Part shown: positions 19,617 through 54,122 of the stretch, one piece after another
Numbering within the stretch: the stretch's first letter is position 1
Layout of the letters: the number at the start of each line of letters is the position of its first letter
Sequence record: NC_100327.1
Origin: a phage
Reading direction: 5' to 3' (one strand)
Length of the DNA: 64,000 nucleotides
Program-made: the position numbers and the translations under genes
The notes under the pieces: model-generated
Seen by the model: only the letters and a program-made list of their open reading frames with translations
Databases searched by the model: none
What the model was told of the DNA's origin: nothing

Positions 19617-19693
19617 TGGTCTCCACGGAGTGATTCGAACACTCGACCTCCTGATCCCAAATCAGGCGCTCTACCAAGCTGAGCTACGCGGAG
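19617..19693 (-). tRNA. tRNA-Pro (anticodon TGG)
   Basis: Hand-folded cloverleaf: 7-bp acceptor with C1-G72, D-arm, anticodon loop TTTGGGA, T-loop TTCGAAT, encoded CCA. Confidence 0.75.
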
Positions 19694-19703
19694 TATTTAT
19701 TAT

Positions 19704-19779
19704 TTGGTGGCCCTGGGTGGAATTGAACCACCGTCTGGCGATTATGAGTCGCTTGCTTGAACCTTCCAGCTACAGGGCC
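19704..19779 (-). tRNA. tRNA with CAT anticodon (Met, or Ile if lysidine-modified)
   Basis: Acceptor GGCCCTG/CAGGGCC, anticodon loop CTCATAA, T-arm GGTGG-TTCAATT-CCACC, CCA encoded. Confidence 0.75.
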
Positions 19780-19780
19780 A

Positions 19781-19856
19781 TGGTGCTGATGGCAGGACTT
19801 GAACCCGCAACCTATTGATTACAAATCAATTGCACTACCGATTGTGCTACATCAGC
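19781..19856 (-). tRNA. tRNA-Thr (anticodon TGT)
   Basis: Perfect acceptor GCTGATG/CATCAGC, anticodon loop TTTGTAA, T-loop TTCAAGT, CCA encoded. Confidence 0.8.
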
Positions 19857-19860
19857 AAAA

Positions 19861-19959
19861 AGGTGCTAGGTGATGGAATCGAACCACCTATGTATTCAAC
19901 GACTACCTCGTCTATTTTCAGGATTAAAAATCCTCGCCCTTGCCAAAGGGCTTACCTAG
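19861..19959 (-). tRNA. aberrant tRNA-like element with Lys (TTT) anticodon loop and ~25-nt insertion
   Basis: About 99 nt: perfect acceptor GCTAGGT/ACCTAGC, D-arm GCCC-TTTGGCAA-GGGC, anticodon loop TTTTTAA, T-arm GGTGG-TTCGATT-CCATC; extra hairpin GACGA-ggtag-TCGTT between anticodon and T arms; 3' end ACC not CCA. Confidence 0.4.
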
Positions 19960-20057
19960 CTCAGTATGTTGACCATGTTGCTAGTCGGCGATGACGACTG
20001 TAACATTTGATAATCCGGTTCTGCTTCCGACTTTCGCTTAATTACAAGGTCAACAAT

Positions 20058-20148
20058 GTGGCGGAGAGTAATGGAATCGAACCATCATCGAGTCATCCTC
20101 AACGGGACGGTTTTCAAGACCGCTTGAGCACCATTGCTCCCTACCCTC
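20058..20148 (-). tRNA. tRNA-Ser (anticodon TGA), type II
   Basis: Acceptor GGAGGGT/ACTCTCC with one G-U, anticodon loop CTTGAAA, long variable arm, T-loop TTCGATT, CCA encoded. Confidence 0.65.
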
Positions 20149-20263
20149 CTTTATAAATTATACTGATAATGACACTGATTTTCGAGCAGTTAGTGACTAG
20201 TATAAACGACGATAAATATCAATGCCATTATCTGTATTATTTATGCATCTAAAAATATAAATT

Positions 20264-20350
20264 TGGTGGGGAGTGGTGGAGTCGAACCACCCGAGTCGCA
20301 ATGACAATAGATTTACAGTCTACACCGCTACCTCTACGGGATAACTCCCC
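20264..20350 (-). tRNA. tRNA-Tyr (anticodon GTA), type II
   Basis: Acceptor GGGGAGT/ACTCCCC, anticodon loop CTGTAAA, long variable arm, T-arm GGTGG-TTCGACT-CCACC, CCA encoded. Confidence 0.75.
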
Positions 20351-20354
20351 AATT

Positions 20355-20429
20355 TGGCACCCCGTACTGGACTCGAACCAGTGTCAACGGCTTAGAAGGC
20401 CGCTGCTTTATCCACTAAGCTAACAGGGC
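20355..20429 (-). tRNA. tRNA-Arg (anticodon TCT)
   Basis: Acceptor with two G-U pairs, D-loop AGTGGATA, anticodon loop CTTCTAA, T-arm ACTGG-TTCGAGT-CCAGT, CCA encoded. Confidence 0.75.
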
Positions 20430-22689: not shown

Positions 22690-22810
22690 TAAATTTAAAA
22701 CATGGTACTTAGGATCTAGTATATTCTACATAAGTTAAGTATATGTACTTAGTACCATAAGTACTAGATCTTTTATTTTTTATTATTTAGTTATTTTAGT
22801 TATATTCTTT
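22690..22810. promoter_or_regulatory. AT-rich palindrome-bearing region (candidate origin/regulatory DNA)
   Basis: Over 75% A+T with GTACTTAG/CTAAGTAC-type inverted repeats and T-runs, adjacent to iteron array. Confidence 0.4.
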
Positions 22811-22812
22811 AT

Positions 22813-22900
22813 GTGTCCGTATCACGGACAGTTAGTGTCCGTATTACGGGCAGATGTGTCCGCGTGACGGACAGTAGTGTCCGTATCACGGACAGTTAAT
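22813..22900. repeat. array of 4-5 palindromic operator/iteron-like sites at ~22-bp spacing
   Basis: TGTCCGT-atc-ACGGACA twice exactly, plus variants TGTCCGT-att-ACGGGCA and TGTCCG-cgtga-CGGACA and a degenerate fifth copy. Confidence 0.7.
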
Positions 22901-29254: not shown

Positions 29255-29725
29255 ATGAAACTTGATAAAAATGTTCAACGAAAAGCTTTCTTGGATATGA
29301 TCGCATATTCAGAAGGCACAGATAATGGTAGACAACCCACCAAGGATCGGGGCTATGATGTCATAGTTGGTGGCAAGCTGTTTAGCGATTACAGCAAGCA
29401 TCCAGGTGTGTACGTTAAGCTAAATGCTAAACTTACCTCCTCCGCTGCTGGGCGTTACCAGGTTTTGGAGAAGTTTGCTAAACACTACATGGAACAGTTA
29501 GGATTGCCAGATTTTGGCCCTGCCAGTCAGGACAAGATTGCGTTGCAACTGATCCGTGAGTGCAAGGCTCTCGCCGACATTGACGAAGGGCGTATCCACG
29601 AGGCTATCCATAAATGCCGTTCCCGCTGGGCTTCGTTACCTGGTGCTGGATATGGTCAGCATGAACAGAAGATTGAGAAGTTGATCGAGGTGTTTAAAAA
29701 GGCAGGCGGTGTTGTCCTTGATTGA
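29255..29725 (+). CDS. endolysin (lambda R-type lytic transglycosylase)
   Basis: 156 aa; near-colinear with lambda R as recalled (QRKAFLDM.A.SEGTDNGRQ ... GAGRYQ ... WASLPGAGYGQ). Confidence 0.85.
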   Translation: MKLDKNVQRKAFLDMIAYSEGTDNGRQPTKDRGYDVIVGGKLFSDYSKHPGVYVKLNAKLTSSAAGRYQVLEKFAKHYMEQLGLPDFGPASQDKIALQLIRECKALADIDEGRIHEAIHKCRSRWASLPGAGYGQHEQKIEKLIEVFKKAGGVVLD

Positions 29726-29728
29726 TCA

Positions 29729-29757
29729 TTGACATAACCACACGGACGTGGTATTGT
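29729..29757 (+). promoter_or_regulatory. sigma70-type promoter
   Basis: TTGACA - 17 nt - TATTGT. Confidence 0.5.
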
Positions 29758-29788: not shown

Positions 29789-29995
29789 ATGAAAGATTTT
29801 CTGTTGGCAATTTTGTTCATGGCAGCATGTCTGGCCTGTGGTGTCGTGTTTGCAGGTGAAACAGCGTATCTTGTCGATGTATATCGGGACAATGGTAAAC
29901 GTATTTGCCTTTATGAGACAAGCCAAGGTGAGCTCTACGAGCTTGTGAAACAAGGCGAGGCTGGATCTTGTCCTCGCACCCATTTCTTTGAATGA
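29789..29995 (+). CDS. small Cys-containing secreted/lipoprotein-like protein
   Basis: 68 aa, ATG with AGGAGGG RBS; N-terminal hydrophobic signal with Cys residues (FMAACLACG); directly after endolysin. Confidence 0.5.
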   Translation: MKDFLLAILFMAACLACGVVFAGETAYLVDVYRDNGKRICLYETSQGELYELVKQGEAGSCPRTHFFE

Positions 29996-33109: not shown

Positions 33110-33441
33110 TGACTAAAAATGCTGTAGATAACGCAATTATGGAAGCTGTTTTTGAGGATGATCACACAACAGGGACACTTAAAACAAAAAATACATTCGT
33201 TGTTGCCACAGGTATGTGGCGGTTGTATGAAGATGACACCATTTCATACATCCTGTACACGGATGATTACGCAGATGACCGTGTATGGTCTGCTGTTTTA
33301 AAAGAGGATTGTGAGCTGATTGAGGGCGAGCGGTTATGCATGTTCACCAGTGTGGAAACAGATGTTAAGCTTTGCTCTCTCGTCTTGTTCAAAGATAAGG
33401 CTTATGCTCCTGATGAAGGAGAGGAGGACGAGGAAGCATGA
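33109..33441 (+). CDS. hypothetical acidic protein
   Basis: 110 aa, ATG overlapping upstream stop, Glu/Asp-rich C-terminus. Confidence 0.5.
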   Translation: MTKNAVDNAIMEAVFEDDHTTGTLKTKNTFVVATGMWRLYEDDTISYILYTDDYADDRVWSAVLKEDCELIEGERLCMFTSVETDVKLCSLVLFKDKAYAPDEGEEDEEA

Positions 33442-43914: not shown

Positions 43915-44193
43915 ATGAGCTGCGAAAAATCTTTTTTCATCATCATTTACGGTAAGGATAACTGCCCACATTGTGTCAGAGCAAAAGAATTTGCAATCAG
44001 CAAAGGTCTGCCTTTTGTATATAAGACACTTGGCGAGGGATACACAAAAGAAGAGCTTATTGAGAAGTGTAGTCCAATCGTCCCCAGAACGTTGCCGCAG
44101 ATCTTCTTAGAAAGCGATCTTGACAGTATCCATATAGGCGGTGCCGACGATTTCATCTCTTTTGTTAAGAATGGTTTTGGAGAGAAAAAGTGA
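43915..44193 (+). CDS. glutaredoxin/NrdH-like redoxin
   Basis: 92 aa; CPHC active site; between nrdB and nrdD. Confidence 0.75.
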   Translation: MSCEKSFFIIIYGKDNCPHCVRAKEFAISKGLPFVYKTLGEGYTKEELIEKCSPIVPRTLPQIFLESDLDSIHIGGADDFISFVKNGFGEKK

Positions 44194-46313
44194 AAGTTGT
44201 AAAACGGGACGGTAGAGAAGAGTTCTATAACGGAATTAAGGTGATCAAGGCGGCAGAGTCCGCCTTACTTGAGTCTGGACATACTGAAGAAGAAGCTTAC
44301 CGGATCGCTTGTGCGGTTAATGAAGTTGTTGCTAACAATCTACCAACCGACCAGTGCACGATCTCTGTAAAAAATATCCATATCCTTGTTGAAGATGCTC
44401 TTATGGATATGGGTTTAAAATGTGCAGCCAGAGAATACATCCAGTATAGACAGACAAGAGATAATAACAGAGAGGCAGGTGGAAAACTGCTTGCAGATAT
44501 TAGTGGCTTCTTGGATCGAACTTGTGATGAATTTACAAAAGAAAACGCAAATAAGCCTACCAATCATGTACACACTCATCGTGACCTGCTTGCAGGCATC
44601 CTTAGCAAACACCTTGCATCAACACAGATCCTGCCAGACCGTGTCTCAGAAGAGCACAATAAAGGCTTCATCCATGTGCATGATCTTGACTACTTGATCA
44701 GTCCGTTAACAAACTGTTGTTTGGTAAATTATCCAGATATGTTGGAAAACGGATTCAACATTGGTAACGCCCATGTCAGTAAGCCGAAGTCAATAGGGGT
44801 TGCAACAACAATCCTTAGCCAAATCTCTAGTGCGGTAGCTAGTGCTCAATATGGGGGTCAGACTATGAGCCATATTGATCATTATCTGGCACAGTATGCT
44901 GAGGCGACTTATGAGAAGAACCTTAAATTTTGCCAGGAACATTGGTTGCCAGATGCTGAGACTGTTGCAATGCAGATGACAGATAAAGACGTATTTGACA
45001 GCATGCAGACTTTACTCTATCAAATCAATACGTTAACTTCTGTCAACGGGCAAACCCCATTCATCACATTAAGTTTAGGTCTGGACACCTCAGTCTTTGG
45101 TAGAATGATTACCAAAAACTACTTGAAAGTCCACAAAATGGGTCTTGGTGAAGAACGTATCACACCTGTGTTCCCTAAAGTGTTGTTCTTCCTAGAAGAG
45201 GGTGTCAACATGAACCCTGGAGATCCTAACTATGATTTGAAACGATTAGCTCTGGAATGCTCTGCAGAGCGGATTTATCCTGACTTTGTTTCTGTTCCAC
45301 TAAATCGTAAAGTGACAGGCTCGACAGATGGTAAAGTAACGAGCATGGGTTGCCGGAGTTTTCTTAGCAAATACAATGACTTGGAAACAGGCGAGGAGAA
45401 ATACCTTGGCAGATTTAACTTAGGCGTTGTTAGCCTTAATCTGCCAATGATTGCGGCAAAAGCTAAAACGGAAGGTGTTGATTTCTTTGCAGTTCTTGAC
45501 GAATACCTAGATCTTGCATACGAGGCTCACCTTGTAAGGGTTGATCGTCTAAAAGGGACAAAGGCAGGGCAGAACCCTATCATGTGGTGTGAAGGCGCTC
45601 TTGCTCGCCTGGGCCCTGAAGAGAGTATTGATAAACTCTTCTACGACGGGTACGCTTCCATCAGTATTGGGTATATTGGTGTGTATGAAACCTGTCAGAT
45701 TTTGGGCAGGGAGGGTGACAAGGCTTTAGCTCTTGGAATACTTCAGCACATGAGAGATGCTTGTGAGAGATACAAGAAGGAAAGTAGACTAGCGTTTAGC
45801 TTGTACGGCACCCCTTCTGAGAGTCTATGCTATAAAGCTGCAACCTGTCTGGATCGTGAATATCCTGAAGTGTTGAAGCACGAGCATGAATATCTCACCA
45901 ACAGTTTCCATCAGCCAGTATGGATCAATAGCTCTCCTTTTGATAAGTGGGAGTATGAGGAAGGTTTTGCTATGATCTCCTCTGGTGGCAACATCGGATA
46001 CGTAGAGACACCAAATCTGAAAAACAACTTAGATGCTTTGGAAGCTCTTGTTGATTTCGGATATAAACACATTATGTATTTTGGTATCAACCAGCCTGTG
46101 GATAAATGTCTCAAGTGTGGTTTCTCTGGTGAGTTCAGTGCAACAGCTAAAGGCTTTGTATGCCCAGAGTGTGGAAACCATGAAGAGGGAACGATCAGCG
46201 TAATTCGACGTGTGTCTGGATACCTTTCCAGTCCTAACTCTCGTCCTTACAATAAAGGTAAGCAAGCGGAAGTTATCGAGCGAGTTAAGCACTACGGAAG
46301 TTGTGGTTGCTGA
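44190..46313 (+). CDS. nrdD: anaerobic ribonucleotide reductase class III
   Basis: 707 aa; GTG start overlapping upstream stop; N-terminal ATP-cone; zinc ribbon CLKCG...CPECG; glycyl-radical motif RVSGY. Confidence 0.9.
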   Translation: MKVVKRDGREEFYNGIKVIKAAESALLESGHTEEEAYRIACAVNEVVANNLPTDQCTISVKNIHILVEDALMDMGLKCAAREYIQYRQTRDNNREAGGKLLADISGFLDRTCDEFTKENANKPTNHVHTHRDLLAGILSKHLASTQILPDRVSEEHNKGFIHVHDLDYLISPLTNCCLVNYPDMLENGFNIGNAHVSKPKSIGVATTILSQISSAVASAQYGGQTMSHIDHYLAQYAEATYEKNLKFCQEHWLPDAETVAMQMTDKDVFDSMQTLLYQINTLTSVNGQTPFITLSLGLDTSVFGRMITKNYLKVHKMGLGEERITPVFPKVLFFLEEGVNMNPGDPNYDLKRLALECSAERIYPDFVSVPLNRKVTGSTDGKVTSMGCRSFLSKYNDLETGEEKYLGRFNLGVVSLNLPMIAAKAKTEGVDFFAVLDEYLDLAYEAHLVRVDRLKGTKAGQNPIMWCEGALARLGPEESIDKLFYDGYASISIGYIGVYETCQILGREGDKALALGILQHMRDACERYKKESRLAFSLYGTPSESLCYKAATCLDREYPEVLKHEHEYLTNSFHQPVWINSSPFDKWEYEEGFAMISSGGNIGYVETPNLKNNLDALEALVDFGYKHIMYFGINQPVDKCLKCGFSGEFSATAKGFVCPECGNHEEGTISVIRRVSGYLSSPNSRPYNKGKQAEVIERVKHYGSCGC

Positions 46314-46316
46314 TAC

Positions 46317-46346
46317 TTGACAAAAGCCACAAGGATGTGGCATATT
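46317..46346 (+). promoter_or_regulatory. sigma70-type promoter with palindrome in spacer
   Basis: TTGACA - 18 nt - TGgCATATT (extended -10); spacer holds GCCACA-agga-TGTGGC. Confidence 0.45.
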
Positions 46347-46382
46347 ATTGACACACAGTGAGCTAGGAGTAGGAGGTGCAGT

Positions 46383-46499
46383 ATGTCTACAGGTATTTAT
46401 AAAATTTGCAAGTGCGGCTGTCATTGCAATCTTCGTTGGTGCAAGGCACTGGACGATTTTATTTGGCATTGCCCTGAATGCGATGCGGAGTACTTATAA
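46383..46499 (+). CDS. zinc-ribbon microprotein (38 aa)
   Basis: Found by hand (below ORF-track size cut-off); ATG with AGGAGG RBS; MSTGIYKICKCGCHCNLRWCKALDDFIWHCPECDAEYL has 7 Cys and 2 His. Confidence 0.5.
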   Translation: MSTGIYKICKCGCHCNLRWCKALDDFIWHCPECDAEYL

Positions 46500-46514
46500 G
46501 CATAAGGGGTCGAA

Positions 46515-46619
46515 ATGCGGAAATCTATCAAGAAAATCAAGATAAAATTGTTAGCACTGAAGCGTAAGTATAAAAAGTTATACGGCTTCATCAAATGGAC
46601 TTTTATAAGTTTATCTTGA
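46515..46619 (+). CDS. basic micro-ORF (34 aa), speculative
   Basis: ATG preceded by AAGGGG; Lys-rich peptide MRKSIKKIKIKLLALKRKYKK... Confidence 0.25.
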   Translation: MRKSIKKIKIKLLALKRKYKKLYGFIKWTFISLS

Positions 46620-46650
46620 ATAGAAGCACACCACAGAAGAGAGGTTCCTT

Positions 46651-46887
46651 ATGATAGGTGTCTGTGTAAAAGCTAACAGATGGTTTACATTCGGTAAGGA
46701 TTACGAAATTATCTTTCATTCGGACAGAGCCACAACAGTAGAAAGTAATGATGGGTGCTACTGGTTCGTTAGTTACCAGGGTGATGGGTATTATAGATCT
46801 ACTGATTCCAGAGGGGAAGAAGCTGTTTTCTTAGATAGAGCTTATTGTGGGCCTGAATATCCCTATCTCAAAGAGGGTAAGGCATGA
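46651..46887 (+). CDS. hypothetical protein
   Basis: 78 aa, ATG with GAGAGG RBS. Confidence 0.5.
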   Translation: MIGVCVKANRWFTFGKDYEIIFHSDRATTVESNDGCYWFVSYQGDGYYRSTDSRGEEAVFLDRAYCGPEYPYLKEGKA

Positions 46888-47357
46888 ATGTTGTCAATAT
46901 TATAGAGTGTAGCATGGTTGACGGCCCAGGTATCAGGACAACAGTGTTCTGTTCTGGTTGTCCACATCACTGCGTCGGTTGCCAAAACAAAAGTGTTTGG
47001 TCCCCCGCTAAAGGGGAACCGTTAACAAATGACACAATCGAGAGCATACTTAGCTCTATAGAACCAAACCATATTACCGGCGTTACATTATGCGGTGGAG
47101 AGCCTTTAGCACCTTACAATATTGATGGTATGTATTCAATCATTTGCGCTATCCGTGAACGCTTCGGCAACACAAAAACTATCTGGGTGTACACAGGGTA
47201 TTTGTTTGAAGAAGTCCCCGATTACATTAAAGATAGTGTTGATTACATTATGGACGGTAAGTACGAAAAAGATAACCCCACCAAAAAACCCTTTAGAGGC
47301 AGTGATAACCAAAGAATGTTTAAAAAGGTAGCAGATGGTTGGGTTCAGGTTGACTAA
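46884..47357 (+). CDS. nrdG: anaerobic ribonucleotide reductase activating protein (radical SAM)
   Basis: 157 aa; cysteine cluster CSGCPHHCVGC; adjacent to nrdD. Confidence 0.85.
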   Translation: MNVVNIIECSMVDGPGIRTTVFCSGCPHHCVGCQNKSVWSPAKGEPLTNDTIESILSSIEPNHITGVTLCGGEPLAPYNIDGMYSIICAIRERFGNTKTIWVYTGYLFEEVPDYIKDSVDYIMDGKYEKDNPTKKPFRGSDNQRMFKKVADGWVQVD

Positions 47358-51770: not shown

Positions 51771-51809
51771 TAATTTATCTTACCAGGGACGGTAGAAGCA
51801 GGAGGTAGC

Positions 51810-53247: not shown

Positions 53248-53712
53248 ATGTTTGTTAAATATGTAAAAACGTGCCTCAACAGTCTTGGCAGAGAGCATTG
53301 GTACACCTTGCTTGAAAAAGGGGAAATTTTAACAAAATCTGGAAAGATAACTTTGATACCTCTTGATAGTAAAGGTAAAGACCCGTCACGACTTGTTATA
53401 GATGATTACGTTACAGGTGTGACGTTCGAGGTCTCTGTGGAGAGGTTAATACGCAGAGCTGGCGGCCCTTATGACCGAAGAGAGTATGTTTTCGATTCCG
53501 TTACAGAGATGGGGGAGCATCCGTCTTTAATGTTCAGGATGGTAATCAGAGATATGAGGTCATCTATAGATAGGATCGTAAAGGACATTAAGGAACCTTT
53601 TAGAGTAAAAGTTAAGAAGTTTTTCGATTCTAAGATTAACATACTCGCCGTTGCACTAGGTGTAGTTCAACTTCTGTTAATTTTGCACTATTTTGAACTA
53701 CTATTTAAGTAG
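53248..53712 (+). CDS. C-terminally membrane-anchored protein
   Basis: ORF track 53242..53712; ATG at codon 3; C-terminal hydrophobic helix ILAVALGVVQLLLILHYF. Confidence 0.5.
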   Translation: MFVKYVKTCLNSLGREHWYTLLEKGEILTKSGKITLIPLDSKGKDPSRLVIDDYVTGVTFEVSVERLIRRAGGPYDRREYVFDSVTEMGEHPSLMFRMVIRDMRSSIDRIVKDIKEPFRVKVKKFFDSKINILAVALGVVQLLLILHYFELLFK

Positions 53713-53774
53713 TAGTTGAGATATGGCACAAAGGATGTGCCATAGTGAAATAAACTAAGAAAGAGGTAGAGAGA

Positions 53775-54122
53775 ATGCCAAAGATTAAAACGTTATTACT
53801 GTGGGTAGCTGTTTTAGCTTTTATAGGGTACTGGACTTGGGAAACTGAATTAAAAGATATCGGATATACCAGTCTTGAGAGCAAGGCGTGCATTGGCATA
53901 ACCGATGCGTTCAGGCAAAATGCTATGGATCACGAATGTGTTGATGCAGATATAGATGAGAAACTGTCTAAGGACAAAGATTTTTACCATGGGCATGCTT
54001 TACTTGATAGTGGTGACACTGTAGAGTTCTGGTCGTGGTTTCGTGAAGATGGAACAATAAAAACAGCAGTAAAGATTTCTAACAAAGAGTTAATGCTGTT
54101 GCAGCAAAAGGAGGCTCAATGA
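53775..54122 (+). CDS. N-terminally anchored membrane/periplasmic protein
   Basis: 115 aa, ATG with AGAGG RBS; N-terminal TM LLLWVAVLAFIGYW. Confidence 0.5.
   Translation: MPKIKTLLLWVAVLAFIGYWTWETELKDIGYTSLESKACIGITDAFRQNAMDHECVDADIDEKLSKDKDFYHGHALLDSGDTVEFWSWFREDGTIKTAVKISNKELMLLQQKEAQ

What the first reader, a model, noticed from the sequence alone, without database searches (positions are those of the whole stretch)
46317..46499. Cys-rich zinc-ribbon microprotein behind a promoter with a palindrome in the spacer; similar palindrome near 53720
A 38-aa ORF with a strong RBS (AGGAGG) encodes seven Cys and two His in CxC/CxxC arrangement, missed by the ORF track because of size. The promoter upstream (TTGACA...TGgCATATT) has the palindrome GCCACA-agga-TGTGGC in its spacer. 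A near-identical palindrome (TGGCACA-aagga-TGTGCCA) occurs at ~53720-53745 between a TTGAGA and a CATAGT hexamer. This suggests a shared operator for an unidentified regulator, and the microprotein could be a small regulator or inhibitor.
Basis: seen in the sequence. Interest (0 to 1): 0.45.

Follow-up and report, generated by a model that had tools for sequence, protein, structure and literature searches.

The report
Conserved phage microprotein and GGA-loop hairpins
In this rV5-like coliphage the 38-residue, seven-cysteine open reading frame (ORF) is a real but already catalogued gene of unknown function, and the two "promoter palindromes" look more like conserved RNA hairpins resembling binding sites for the host translational regulator CsrA than like DNA operators.

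Summary
The window is a Vequintavirus (rV5-like, about 99.9% identical to phages CarlMeissner and pangalan).

**The micro-ORF (46383-46499)**
- It is a genuine gene: it matches PHROG 20137 (a phage protein family) and is annotated as hypothetical in many GenBank records.
- Its frame is under purifying selection and all seven Cys are invariant. The two His are not.
- In most relatives its stop overlaps the nrdG start (TTATGA). The window carries a two-ORF insertion there.
- It also occurs in an SP6-like podovirus, next to DNA ligase. Some close nrdG relatives lack it. It is therefore not an obligate ribonucleotide reductase (RNR) subunit.
- Its function remains unknown.

**The palindromes**
- They belong to a small set of intercistronic stem-loops at 46326, 53722 and 29737, with the core CAC-A-N-GGA-N-GUG.
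- The core is invariant while the flanks, including the -35/-10 hexamers at 53.7 kb, drift.
- The outer stem pairs covary, loop length varies (4-6 nt), and GGA is always on the sense strand.
- This favours an RNA element matching the CsrA high-affinity consensus over a duplex operator. CsrA binding itself is untested.

Overall interest is moderate.

The parts
44190..46313 (+). nrdD (class III anaerobic ribonucleotide reductase, 707 aa). This is the upstream gene; its stop codon lies 12 nt before hairpin 1.
   Evidence: ORF list; annotated as NrdD in rV5 and CarlMeissner.
46317..46346 (+). Sigma-70-like promoter, TTGACA-18 nt-CATATT with a TG extension. The predicted transcription start is about 46353, downstream of the hairpin.
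   Evidence: Consensus scan gives 10/12 plus TG. The hexamers are identical in 8 close relatives. PhagePromoter predicted it in phage Gotham. It is not annotated in rV5 and is absent in the diverged relative L016. No transcription data exist.
46326..46341 (+). Hairpin 1: GCCACA-AGGA-UGUGGC, with GGA in the loop. Its core ACAAGGAUGU matches the CsrA SELEX (in vitro selection) consensus.
   Evidence: Present in the minimum-free-energy and centroid RNA folds. The EPFV3 variant GUCACA..UGUGGC keeps pairing through a U.G wobble on the + strand only. L016 has GAGCACA-AGGA-UGUGCUC.
46371..46376 (+). Shine-Dalgarno sequence AGGAGG of the micro-ORF. It contains a second GGA (a further GGA lies in AGGAG at 46364-46368).
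   Evidence: Sequence; conserved in relatives.
46383..46499 (+). Micro-ORF of 38 aa, MSTGIYKICKCGCHCNLRWCKALDDFIWHCPECDAEYL. It has seven invariant Cys and a zinc-ribbon-like pair of knuckles, and belongs to PHROG 20137.
   Evidence: PHROG match at E 3e-30. Found in 124 phage records. Codon differences are 297 synonymous / 139 non-synonymous in this frame, against 76/345 and 42/391 in the other two frames. Alignment A1. Public database names.
46503..46883 (+). Insertion module that separates the micro-ORF from nrdG in this phage: a Lys-rich 34-aa ORF (46515-46619) and a 78-aa ORF (46651-46887, phrog_3249).
   Evidence: Only 22 of 169 matching records span this region. Most relatives match up to 46503 and then run straight into nrdG. 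PHROG match.
46884..47357 (+). nrdG (radical-SAM activase). In most relatives its ATG overlaps the micro-ORF stop (TTATGA or CTATGA).
53722..53744 (+). Hairpin 2: UAUGGCACA-AAGGA-UGUGCCAUA. The invariant core is 53725-53741. It starts 10-12 nt after the stop codon of a 156-aa gene and ends about 33 nt before the start of a 115-aa membrane-protein gene (53775-54122, phrog_11867).
   Evidence: The core is invariant in 7 flank variants while the hexamers drift. RNA fold z-score is -5.2.
29737..29752 (+). Hairpin 3: ACCAC-ACGGAC-GUGGU, lying inside TTGACA(29729)-17 nt-TATTGT. It sits between the endolysin gene (29255-29725) and a 68-aa putative lipoprotein gene (29789-29995, phrog_4641).
   Evidence: Among relatives only the two N positions change (CACGGACG to CAUGGAUG). 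Present in the minimum-free-energy fold.
51781..51794 (+). Weaker candidate of the same kind: UACC-AGGGAC-GGUA, 4 nt upstream of the Shine-Dalgarno sequence of a 77-aa gene (start 51810).
   Evidence: Conserved in close relatives L018 and L019, but replaced by a canonical terminator in L016 and L008.

Best explanation
Two separate things sit here.

(1) The micro-ORF
- It is a real, expressed-looking gene for a 38-aa, seven-cysteine mini-protein that probably binds metal and has a zinc-ribbon-like knuckle arrangement.
- It travels with the nucleotide-metabolism genes of rV5-like phages.
- It is normally translated in tandem with the anaerobic-RNR activase NrdG, because its stop overlaps the nrdG start.
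- It is not an RNR subunit.
- The most likely role is a stand-alone small binder or modulator of a host or phage protein of nucleotide or DNA metabolism. This step is inferred and its support is weak.

(2) The 'palindromes'
- They are copies of a short intercistronic RNA stem-loop. The 6-bp stem ends in CAC-A, and GGA is displayed in a 4-6-nt loop.
- Each lies 10-13 nt after the upstream stop codon and about 25-40 nt before the next start codon.
- On polycistronic read-through mRNA the hairpin most likely recruits a GGA-loop-binding factor. The best candidate is host CsrA, whose high-affinity consensus RUACARGGAUGU it matches.
- At sites 1 and 3 the factor could bridge to a second GGA in the Shine-Dalgarno sequence and throttle translation of the small downstream gene.
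- Where a sigma-70-like promoter overlaps the hairpin, transcripts that start there lack the hairpin and would escape this control.

Shown versus inferred
- Shown: gene reality, conservation, covariation and consensus match.
- Inferred: RNA-level action, CsrA as the factor, promoter activity, metal binding and the protein's target.
For: Gene
- PHROG 20137 match at E 3e-30.
- Present in 124 phage records and annotated as a CDS in many of them.
- Codon differences are strongly synonymous-biased only in this frame, and variable sites by codon position are 10/4/16.
- The diverged L008 copy differs in the last 24 codons only synonymously.
- All 7 Cys are invariant, while His14 and His29 vary.
- The stop overlaps the nrdG start in L004, L005, L008, L014, L015, L017, L018, L019 and L147.
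- It has been horizontally transferred into the SP6-like phage ACG-C91.

Hairpins
- The shared core occurs 2 times against 0.01 expected.
- The site-2 core is invariant in 7 flank variants while the promoter hexamers decay.
- The L016 hairpin has no promoter.
- Site 3 varies only at the two N positions of CANGGANG.
- The two outer stem pairs covary (AU4/GC4; CG4/GC3/UG1), and 0 of 500 shuffles reach the observed score.
- All hairpins appear in the minimum-free-energy or centroid folds.
- Six of 11 genome-wide hits to the stem plus CA-N(1-2)-GGA-N-G motif lie on the sense strand in short 5' intergenic regions (with annotation).

CsrA precedent
- CsrA consensus, with ACA and GGA invariant and GGA in the hairpin loop: PMC4347634.
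- CsrA binds an intercistronic stem-loop plus the Shine-Dalgarno sequence of the ColE7 lysis gene cel: PMC2896534.
Against: - No binding, transcript-mapping or translation data exist for this phage group.
- Genome-wide, the loose GGA-hairpin motif is not significantly over-represented (6 against 3.2 expected in the window, P about 0.09). The case therefore rests on conservation and location.
- The hairpin instances were partly found by searching for hairpins, which inflates the covariation statistic.
- Site 2 has a 5-nt loop, a one-base insertion relative to the consensus. Site 2 and the L016 site have no GGA in their Shine-Dalgarno sequence.
- In this phage all three hairpins are nested between -35-like and -10-like hexamers, and the promoters at sites 1 and 3 are conserved among close relatives. 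A DNA-level role is therefore not excluded.
- In phages with a homing-endonuclease insertion the hairpin is separated from the micro-ORF by about 1 kb.
- For the protein: the AlphaFold model is unreliable (pLDDT 52), and there is no Pfam or PDB relative.
- Deletion or fusion variants exist (P0009 and P0001), so the gene is dispensable at least in some phages.
Confidence: 0.5

Rival explanations
1. First reader's model. The palindromes are duplex-DNA operators for one dimeric regulator, phage or host, which sits in the spacer or on the -10 of these promoters and represses or activates them. The microprotein could be that regulator.
For: - In this phage all three elements are nested between -35-like and -10-like hexamers with long spacers of 17-19 bp.
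- The right arm supplies the TG of an extended -10.
- The hexamers at sites 1 and 3 are conserved in close relatives.
- The inner half-sites CACA/TGTG are invariant.
Against: - Half-site spacing varies between 4, 5 and 6 nt.
- The non-palindromic centre GGA is conserved, always on the sense strand.
- The outer, sequence-variable positions stay complementary.
- The EPFV3 variant is U.G on the + strand but A.C on the other strand.
- The promoter hexamers are not conserved at site 2 or in L016.
- No regulator was identified.
- L017 and L008 carry the microprotein but have no hairpin upstream of it.
Confidence: 0.15
2. The hairpins are passive RNA punctuation with no specific trans-acting factor. 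They would act as barriers to 3' exonucleases, as processing sites, or as weak terminators at the ends of the upstream cistrons.
For: - The constant 10-13 nt distance from the upstream stop codon holds even where the promoter hexamers are absent.
- A lenient terminator scan flags site 1.
- In L016 and L008 a canonical terminator occupies the position of the 51781 candidate.
Against: - There is no U-tract after sites 2 or 3, and only AUAUUAUU after site 1.
- A passive hairpin does not explain the invariant loop GGA and invariant CAC-A/U-GUG, with variation confined to the N positions.
- The genome's genuine terminators look different, with GC-rich 8-10-bp stems followed by T runs.
Confidence: 0.15
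3. The promoter-plus-hairpin units are PeSL-like mobile regulatory cassettes. Their similarity would reflect recombination or duplication that shuffles small genes, not a shared regulator.
For: - Mosaic junctions among relatives coincide with the elements. Matches begin or end at about 29720-29725, 46342, 46371 and 46503.
- Small accessory ORFs flank the elements.
- T4-type PeSLs (promoter-early stem-loop cassettes) are composite promoter plus stem-loop motifs that mediate modular shuffling: PMC2839356, PMC4122927.
Against: - Only about 30 nt are shared, there are only 3 copies per genome, and the flanks are unrelated.
- The core is held invariant while the flanks drift. That indicates selection on the element itself, not mere recent copying.
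Confidence: 0.1
4. The microprotein is a dedicated accessory of the anaerobic ribonucleotide reductase, for example one that helps NrdG activate NrdD or supplies or stabilises a metal centre.
For: - It lies between nrdD and nrdG in all rV5-like genomes, and its stop overlaps the nrdG start in most.
- It is retained next to a NrdG that is only 53% identical (L147).
- A possibly related 85-aa zinc-ribbon family (hhalign probability 86%) sits between nrdD and nrdG in unrelated phage contigs of about 98 kb and near nrdG in L163-L166.
Against: - ACG-C91 has the gene between a DUF3310 protein and DNA ligase, with no nrdDG nearby.
- Phages whose NrdG is 83-85% identical lack it (L145 and L146).
- Five of seven contexts of the 85-aa family have no nrd genes.
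- Similarity to NrdD or NrdG is limited to the tetrapeptide CPEC.
- The database label 'ribonucleotide reductase' is derived from genomic context, not homology.
Confidence: 0.3
5. The microprotein itself is the hairpin-binding factor. It would be a zinc-knuckle RNA binder that autoregulates and controls the other GGA-loop leaders.
For: - The hairpin precedes the micro-ORF in two diverged lineages, the window type and L016.
- Zinc knuckles that read G-rich tetraloops are known elsewhere, in retroviral nucleocapsid proteins. This point comes from my own knowledge and was not tested.
Against: - L017 and L008 keep the microprotein without a hairpin upstream of it.
- ACG-C91 has the gene without any such hairpin.
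- No basic or aromatic RNA-binding surface can be assessed, because the model has pLDDT 52.
Confidence: 0.05

Closest known systems
[quoted passage not shown]
   Same: - A short hairpin just after the upstream stop codon displays GGA in its loop.
- At sites 1 and 3 a second GGA lies in the Shine-Dalgarno sequence of a small downstream gene. Site 3 precedes a putative lipoprotein next to the endolysin, which parallels a lysis lipoprotein.
- The core matches RUACARGGAUGU (PMC2896534, PMC4347634).
   Different: - No binding or genetic evidence exists here.
- Site 2 has a 5-nt loop and no GGA in its Shine-Dalgarno sequence.
- The hairpins overlap sigma-70-like promoters.
- The element is in a virulent phage, where I found no report of CsrA-controlled genes (the search was not exhaustive).
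PeSL (promoter-early stem-loop) cassettes of T4-type phages
   Same: Both are composite promoter-plus-stem-loop motifs in short intergenic regions that flank small accessory ORFs, and mosaic junctions fall at the motif (PMC2839356, PMC4122927).
   Different: - Here the stem-loop lies inside the promoter spacer rather than upstream of the promoter as a terminator.
- There are only about 3 copies.
- The loop sequence is conserved.
- The phage family is different.
Operators within promoter spacers (MerR-type promoters, or repressor operators that overlap the -10)
   Same: A dyad lies between -35 and -10 hexamers that are separated by over-long spacers of 18-19 bp.
   Different: - Dyad spacing is not fixed.
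- The centre is asymmetric and conserved.
- The hexamers are not conserved with the dyad at site 2 or in L016.
- No cognate regulator gene was found.
Small zinc-ribbon or rubredoxin-knuckle proteins (CxxC...CPxC), including the 85-aa phage family found here upstream of nrdG (alignment A2)
   Same: - An N-terminal C-K-(x)-C-G knuckle and a C-terminal C-P-x-C knuckle followed by AEY.
- hhalign A1 against A2 gives probability 86%, E 4.8e-6.
- Both are located in nucleotide-metabolism or replication modules.
   Different: - The microprotein has three extra invariant Cys (C13, C15, C20) and no insert or C-terminal helix.
- No Pfam zinc-ribbon model matches it.
- A confident model of the 85-aa family (pLDDT 85) has no significant PDB neighbour.

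Membership tests
PHROG 20137 (38-aa phage protein family labelled 'ribonucleotide reductase') | Full-length match to the family profile | tested here: met
   E 3.1e-30, residues 1-38 against profile positions 1-38 of 38.
Class III ribonucleotide reductase component (NrdD/NrdG) | Sequence homology to NrdD or NrdG domains | tested here: not met
   No Pfam hit at E up to 10. BLASTP against the NrdD C-terminus aligns only CPEC.
Class III ribonucleotide reductase component (NrdD/NrdG) | Obligate co-occurrence with nrdG | tested here: not met
   Present in ACG-C91 next to DNA ligase. Absent upstream of NrdGs that are 83-85% identical, in L145 and L146.
Zinc-ribbon / rubredoxin-knuckle metal-binding mini-domain | Two Cys knuckles (CxC or CxxC, and CPxC) that are invariant across homologues | tested here: met
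   C9, C11, C30 and C33 are invariant, as are C13, C15 and C20.
Zinc-ribbon / rubredoxin-knuckle metal-binding mini-domain | Zinc-ribbon fold | tested here: inconclusive
   The AlphaFold2 model has mean pLDDT 52 and shows short beta-strands only. PDB sequence search gives E of 0.69 or worse.
Zinc-ribbon / rubredoxin-knuckle metal-binding mini-domain | Bound metal (Zn or Fe) | not testable with these tools
   Requires metal analysis or spectroscopy of the purified peptide.
CsrA/RsmA binding site | GGA in the loop of a short hairpin | tested here: met
   Sites 1, 2 and 3 and the L016 site all have this, and it appears in the minimum-free-energy and centroid folds.
CsrA/RsmA binding site | Match to RUACARGGAUGU, with ACA and GGA invariant | tested here: met
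   Site 1 matches 10/12 and L016 11/12. Site 3 reads ACA-C-GGA-C-GU. Site 2 keeps ACA and GGA but has one extra A (consensus from PMC4347634).
CsrA/RsmA binding site | Second GGA site that overlaps the Shine-Dalgarno sequence within bridging distance | tested here: inconclusive
   Present at site 1 (AGGAG/AGGAGG, about 30-40 nt away) and site 3 (AGGAGG, about 29 nt away). Absent at site 2 and in L016.
CsrA/RsmA binding site | Binding by CsrA and CsrA-dependent expression | not testable with these tools
   Needs EMSA and reporter fusions in csrA and csrBC backgrounds.
Duplex-DNA operator in a promoter spacer | Fixed half-site spacing, with the dyad conserved together with the promoter | tested here: not met
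   Spacing is 4, 5 or 6 nt. The hexamers are lost at site 2 in relatives and in L016 while the core is kept.
Intrinsic (Rho-independent) terminator | GC-rich stem followed by a U-tract | tested here: not met
   Only site 1 passes a lenient scan, with the tail AUAUUAUU. Sites 2 and 3 have no T run.
Known RNA family (Rfam) | Match at or above a family's gathering score | tested here: not met
   The whole-window scan found only six tRNA matches.

The most novel reading that the evidence does not exclude
A virulent coliphage has wired a handful of small genes into the host Csr system. The genes are the 7-Cys microprotein, a putative lipoprotein next to the endolysin, and a small membrane protein. 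Each carries a high-affinity CsrA hairpin in its intercistronic leader, so that its translation would track the host's CsrA/CsrB-C state, while overlapping promoters provide a CsrA-blind mRNA isoform.
Probability: 0.27. Interest if true: 0.6.

Novelty: new member of a known kind. Interest (0 to 1): 0.4.

Why it matters
- **The hairpins.** If they are CsrA sites, this would be a direct and easily testable case of a lytic phage reading the host's global post-transcriptional state to dose small, potentially toxic proteins. Plasmid lysis genes do this; I found no report of it for virulent coliphages.
- **The microprotein.** It is widespread in therapeutic-type rV5-like phages and strictly conserved at seven cysteines. 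In public records it has been mis-framed, missed, or mislabelled as 'ribonucleotide reductase'. Correcting that, and testing whether it touches the anaerobic RNR, is useful.
- **Scale.** This is incremental work on an existing uncharacterised family, not a new kind of system.

Tried and rejected
- **Deep protein searches.** The search of all representative proteins and the word-indexed search found only phage microproteins. P0006 and P0008 are spurious repeat proteins.
- **CDGSH iron-sulfur motif.** A weak PDB hit (E 0.69) was rejected because the C-x-C spacing is not conserved in homologues (CK-C against CKxC).
- **Duplication of the NrdD C-terminal zinc ribbon.** Rejected.
- **AlphaFold of the microprotein.** The model has pLDDT 52 and is unusable, so no fold search was run on it.
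- **85-aa zinc-ribbon family as a structural proxy.** The model is good (pLDDT 85) but has no significant PDB neighbour. Its association with nrdG holds in only 2 of 7 contexts.
- **Metagenome scan.** The purine-rich 18-mer returned almost only chance hits. Three useful Vequintavirus contigs came out of it: L096, L107 and L134.
- **IMG/VR.** It holds few relatives.
- **NrdR, FNR and CRP boxes.** Compared from memory only; the half-site orientation and spacing do not fit.
- **T4 RegB (GGAG) sites.** Considered; the loops read GGAU or GGAC, not GGAG.
- **Rfam.** No match.
- **Rest of the genome.** No further CACA-(A)AGGA-TGTG copies.

Full report
**Identity of the window.** The region is 99.9% identical to Escherichia phages CarlMeissner and pangalan. 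It is 97% identical to rV5 (genus Vequintavirus). The finding lies in the nucleotide-metabolism block:
- nrdD at 44190-46313
- the micro-ORF at 46383-46499
- a 34-aa ORF and a 78-aa ORF
- nrdG at 46884-47357
- phoH

**Observation check.** Every element is present at the stated coordinates:
- TTGACA (46317) - 18 nt - TGgCATATT
- the palindrome GCCACA-AGGA-TGTGGC (46326-46341)
- AGGAGG six nucleotides before the ATG
- 38 codons with 7 Cys and 2 His

The second palindrome is longer than reported: TATGGCACA-AAGGA-TGTGCCATA at 53722-53744. The shared core CACA(A)AGGATGTG occurs twice, against 0.01 expected. It occurs nowhere else in the remaining 73 kb of the genome (L010 and L011).

**The micro-ORF is a real gene and is already catalogued.**
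- It matches PHROG 20137 end to end (E 3e-30).
- It is found in 124 phage records.
- The exact protein is deposited as 'hypothetical protein' for several phages. Context-derived labels such as 'ribonucleotide reductase' also occur.
- The rV5 record annotates the overlapping other frame (ORF114). Murica annotates a 'terminator' inside the ORF.
- Across 10 distinct DNA variants of the C-terminal 26 codons plus the stop codon, codon differences are 297 synonymous / 139 non-synonymous in the micro-ORF frame. In the other two frames they are 76/345 and 42/391. Variable sites by codon position are 10/4/16.
- A diverged 54-aa version (L008) keeps the last 24 residues identical through synonymous changes only.
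- All seven Cys are invariant. The first knuckle is C-K-C-G-C-x-C or C-K-x-C-G-C-x-C. His14 (H/R/S/K/E) and His29 (H/Y) are not conserved.
- Exhaustive searches find no relatives beyond a handful of phage microproteins. There is no Pfam match and no PDB match.
- AlphaFold gives pLDDT 52.

**Genomic logic of the microprotein.** In most relatives the ORF's stop overlaps the nrdG start (TTATGA or CTATGA). This holds even next to a NrdG that is only 53% identical (L147). The window, rV5 and L016 carry an insertion there.

The gene is nevertheless not tied to nrdG:
- An 80%-identical DNA copy sits unannotated in the SP6-like podovirus ACG-C91, between a DUF3310 protein and ATP-dependent DNA ligase. 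There it overlaps the ligase start.
- Phages whose NrdG is 83-85% identical lack it.
- A deletion variant fuses its N-terminal half to the 78-aa ORF (P0009).
- A possibly related 85-aa zinc-ribbon family (hhalign probability 86%) lies between nrdD and nrdG in unrelated phage contigs of about 98 kb. In 5 of 7 contexts, however, it lies elsewhere in replication or nucleotide-metabolism modules.

I conclude that this is a stand-alone, probably metal-binding mini-protein co-expressed with nucleotide-metabolism genes. An RNR-accessory role remains possible (about 0.3) but is not required by the data.

**The palindromes.** A third related element lies at 29737-29752: ACCAC-ACGGAC-GTGGT inside TTGACA-17-TATTGT. 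It sits between the endolysin gene and a 68-aa putative lipoprotein gene. Comparative data separate the hairpin from the promoter.
- **Site 2.** Seven flank variants keep GGCACAAAGGATGTGCC unchanged. Upstream of it, TTGAGATAT becomes CATAGCAA, GTGCAATAA, GCAATGA or GCAACAA. The '-10' becomes CATGAC, CATAAC or CATGAT.
- **L016.** This diverged relative has GAGCACA-AGGA-TGTGCTC 24 nt upstream of its micro-ORF, with no recognisable hexamers.
- **Site 3.** Variants change only the two N positions (CACGGACG to CATGGATG).
- **EPFV3 at site 1.** The variant reads GTCACA..TGTGGC. This is a U.G wobble on the + strand and an A.C mismatch on the other strand.

Aligning the eight distinct instances gives invariant CAC-A, GGA and GUG. 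The two outer stem pairs covary (AU4/GC4; CG4/GC3/UG1). Cells are 95.8% paired, and 0 of 500 shuffles reach the observed covariation score. One caveat is that some instances were ascertained as hairpins. All hairpins appear in the minimum-free-energy and centroid RNA folds, and site 2 has a z-score of -5.2.

Variable loop length, an asymmetric and strand-consistent GGA centre, and complementary but variable outer positions are expected of an RNA stem-loop. They are not expected of a duplex operator for a dimeric protein.

**What the hairpin resembles.** The core ACA-N-GGA-N-GU in a hairpin loop is the high-affinity CsrA/Rsm site. The SELEX (in vitro selection) consensus is RUACARGGAUGU, with ACA and GGA 100% conserved and GGA in the loop (PMC4347634). 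Site 1 matches 10/12, L016 11/12, and site 2 has one extra A.

The architecture is an intercistronic hairpin shortly after the upstream stop codon plus, at sites 1 and 3, a GGA-containing Shine-Dalgarno sequence. This mirrors CsrA repression of the ColE7 lysis lipoprotein gene cel (PMC2896534).

Genome-wide, 6 of 11 matches to a loose stem plus CA-N(1-2)-GGA-N-G motif lie on the sense strand in short 5' intergenic regions (with annotation). The motif count itself is not significantly above chance, however. The 51781 candidate is not kept in diverged relatives. There is no Rfam family. I found no literature on CsrA sites in virulent coliphage mRNAs and no transcriptomics for this genus.

**Promoters.** The sigma-70-like promoters at sites 1 and 3 are conserved among close relatives. 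One was predicted by others. rV5 is reported to use many host-type promoters, 11 of them with extended -10 regions (PMC3606486). They may well be active. If so, transcripts that start there lack the hairpin, which gives two mRNA isoforms. This step is inference. Mosaic junctions among relatives fall at these elements, which is reminiscent of T4-type PeSL cassettes.

**Verdict.** The gene is real but already known as an uncharacterised family. The 'shared operator' reading is less likely (about 0.15) than a conserved RNA stem-loop (about 0.6). Host CsrA is the best but untested candidate factor (about 0.3). No evidence links the microprotein to the hairpins.

Noticed in passing
window 22736-22900: Dense cluster of overlapping inverted and direct repeats built from TGTCCGT / ACGGACA units (for example TGTCCGT-ATC-ACGGACA, three times) in a non-coding stretch. 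It looks like an iteron or multi-operator array, possibly an origin or a regulator-binding region.
   Followed up: no
window 19620-20429 (- strand): Cluster of six tRNA genes (Rfam RF00005).
   Followed up: no
L001 (rV5 DQ832317) 2011-2238; L004 (Murica) 1251-1274: Public annotation errors at this locus. rV5 annotates the overlapping wrong frame (ORF114, 75 aa). Murica annotates a 'terminator' inside the micro-ORF and no CDS. RefSeq and other records call the 38-aa protein 'ribonucleotide reductase'.
   Followed up: yes
L003 (phage ACG-C91, NC_019403) 2483-2608: Unannotated homologue of the microprotein (74% aa, 80% nt identity) in an SP6-like podovirus. Its stop overlaps the start of the ATP-dependent DNA ligase, which indicates recent horizontal transfer between unrelated coliphages.
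   Followed up: partly
window 46503-46883: Insertion module (Lys-rich 34-aa ORF plus 78-aa phrog_3249 ORF) present in only about 22 relatives. One relative (P0009) carries a deletion that fuses microprotein residues 1-21 to the C-terminus of the 78-aa ORF. Phage Alma (P0001) has a frameshifted 61-aa version.
   Followed up: partly
L016 12249-12268; L017 12092-12111; L008 4555-4574: Another conserved GGA-loop hairpin, GGTTGAC-A(A/C)GGAA-GTCAATC. Its left arm contains the -35 of a perfect TTGACA-17-TATGAT promoter upstream of a 41-aa ORF. The equivalent promoter in the window (47361) has a different palindrome, ACAAAGCTTTGT.
   Followed up: no
L010 14671-14688; L011 37705-37718: Further intergenic, sense-strand GGA-loop hairpins elsewhere in the genome. 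CAGCAC-AGGGAG-GTGCTG lies after the DNA polymerase gene, and CGGC-AAGGAT-GCTG lies 9 nt before a Shine-Dalgarno sequence.
   Followed up: no
window 33205-33220: GCCACA-GGTA-TGTGGC has arms identical to hairpin 1 but a different loop, and it lies inside a long + strand ORF. It is probably chance.
   Followed up: no
L016 6862-9948; L017 6687-9936; L019 6795-9939: In several relatives nrdD is split into two or three pieces by inserted HNH or other ORFs (homing-endonuclease or intron-like insertions). Other relatives carry an endonuclease of about 1 kb between hairpin 1 and the micro-ORF.
   Followed up: no
L168-L172 4001-4258 (phage contigs of about 98 kb from metagenomes): An 85-aa four-Cys zinc-ribbon family with no Pfam or PHROG assignment sits between nrdD and nrdG in an unrelated phage group. 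Its AlphaFold model is confident (pLDDT 85) but has no PDB neighbour.
   Followed up: partly
GenBank records MG0656xx (hits): About 20 records named 'Campylobacter phage' with host C. jejuni are near-identical to E. coli rV5-like phages over these loci. This suggests mislabelled or contaminant genomes.
   Followed up: no
window 53696-53717: AT-rich 8-bp hairpin AACTACTA-TTTAAG-TAGTAGTT spans the stop codon of the 156-aa gene and overlaps the TTGAGA hexamer just upstream of hairpin 2.
   Followed up: no
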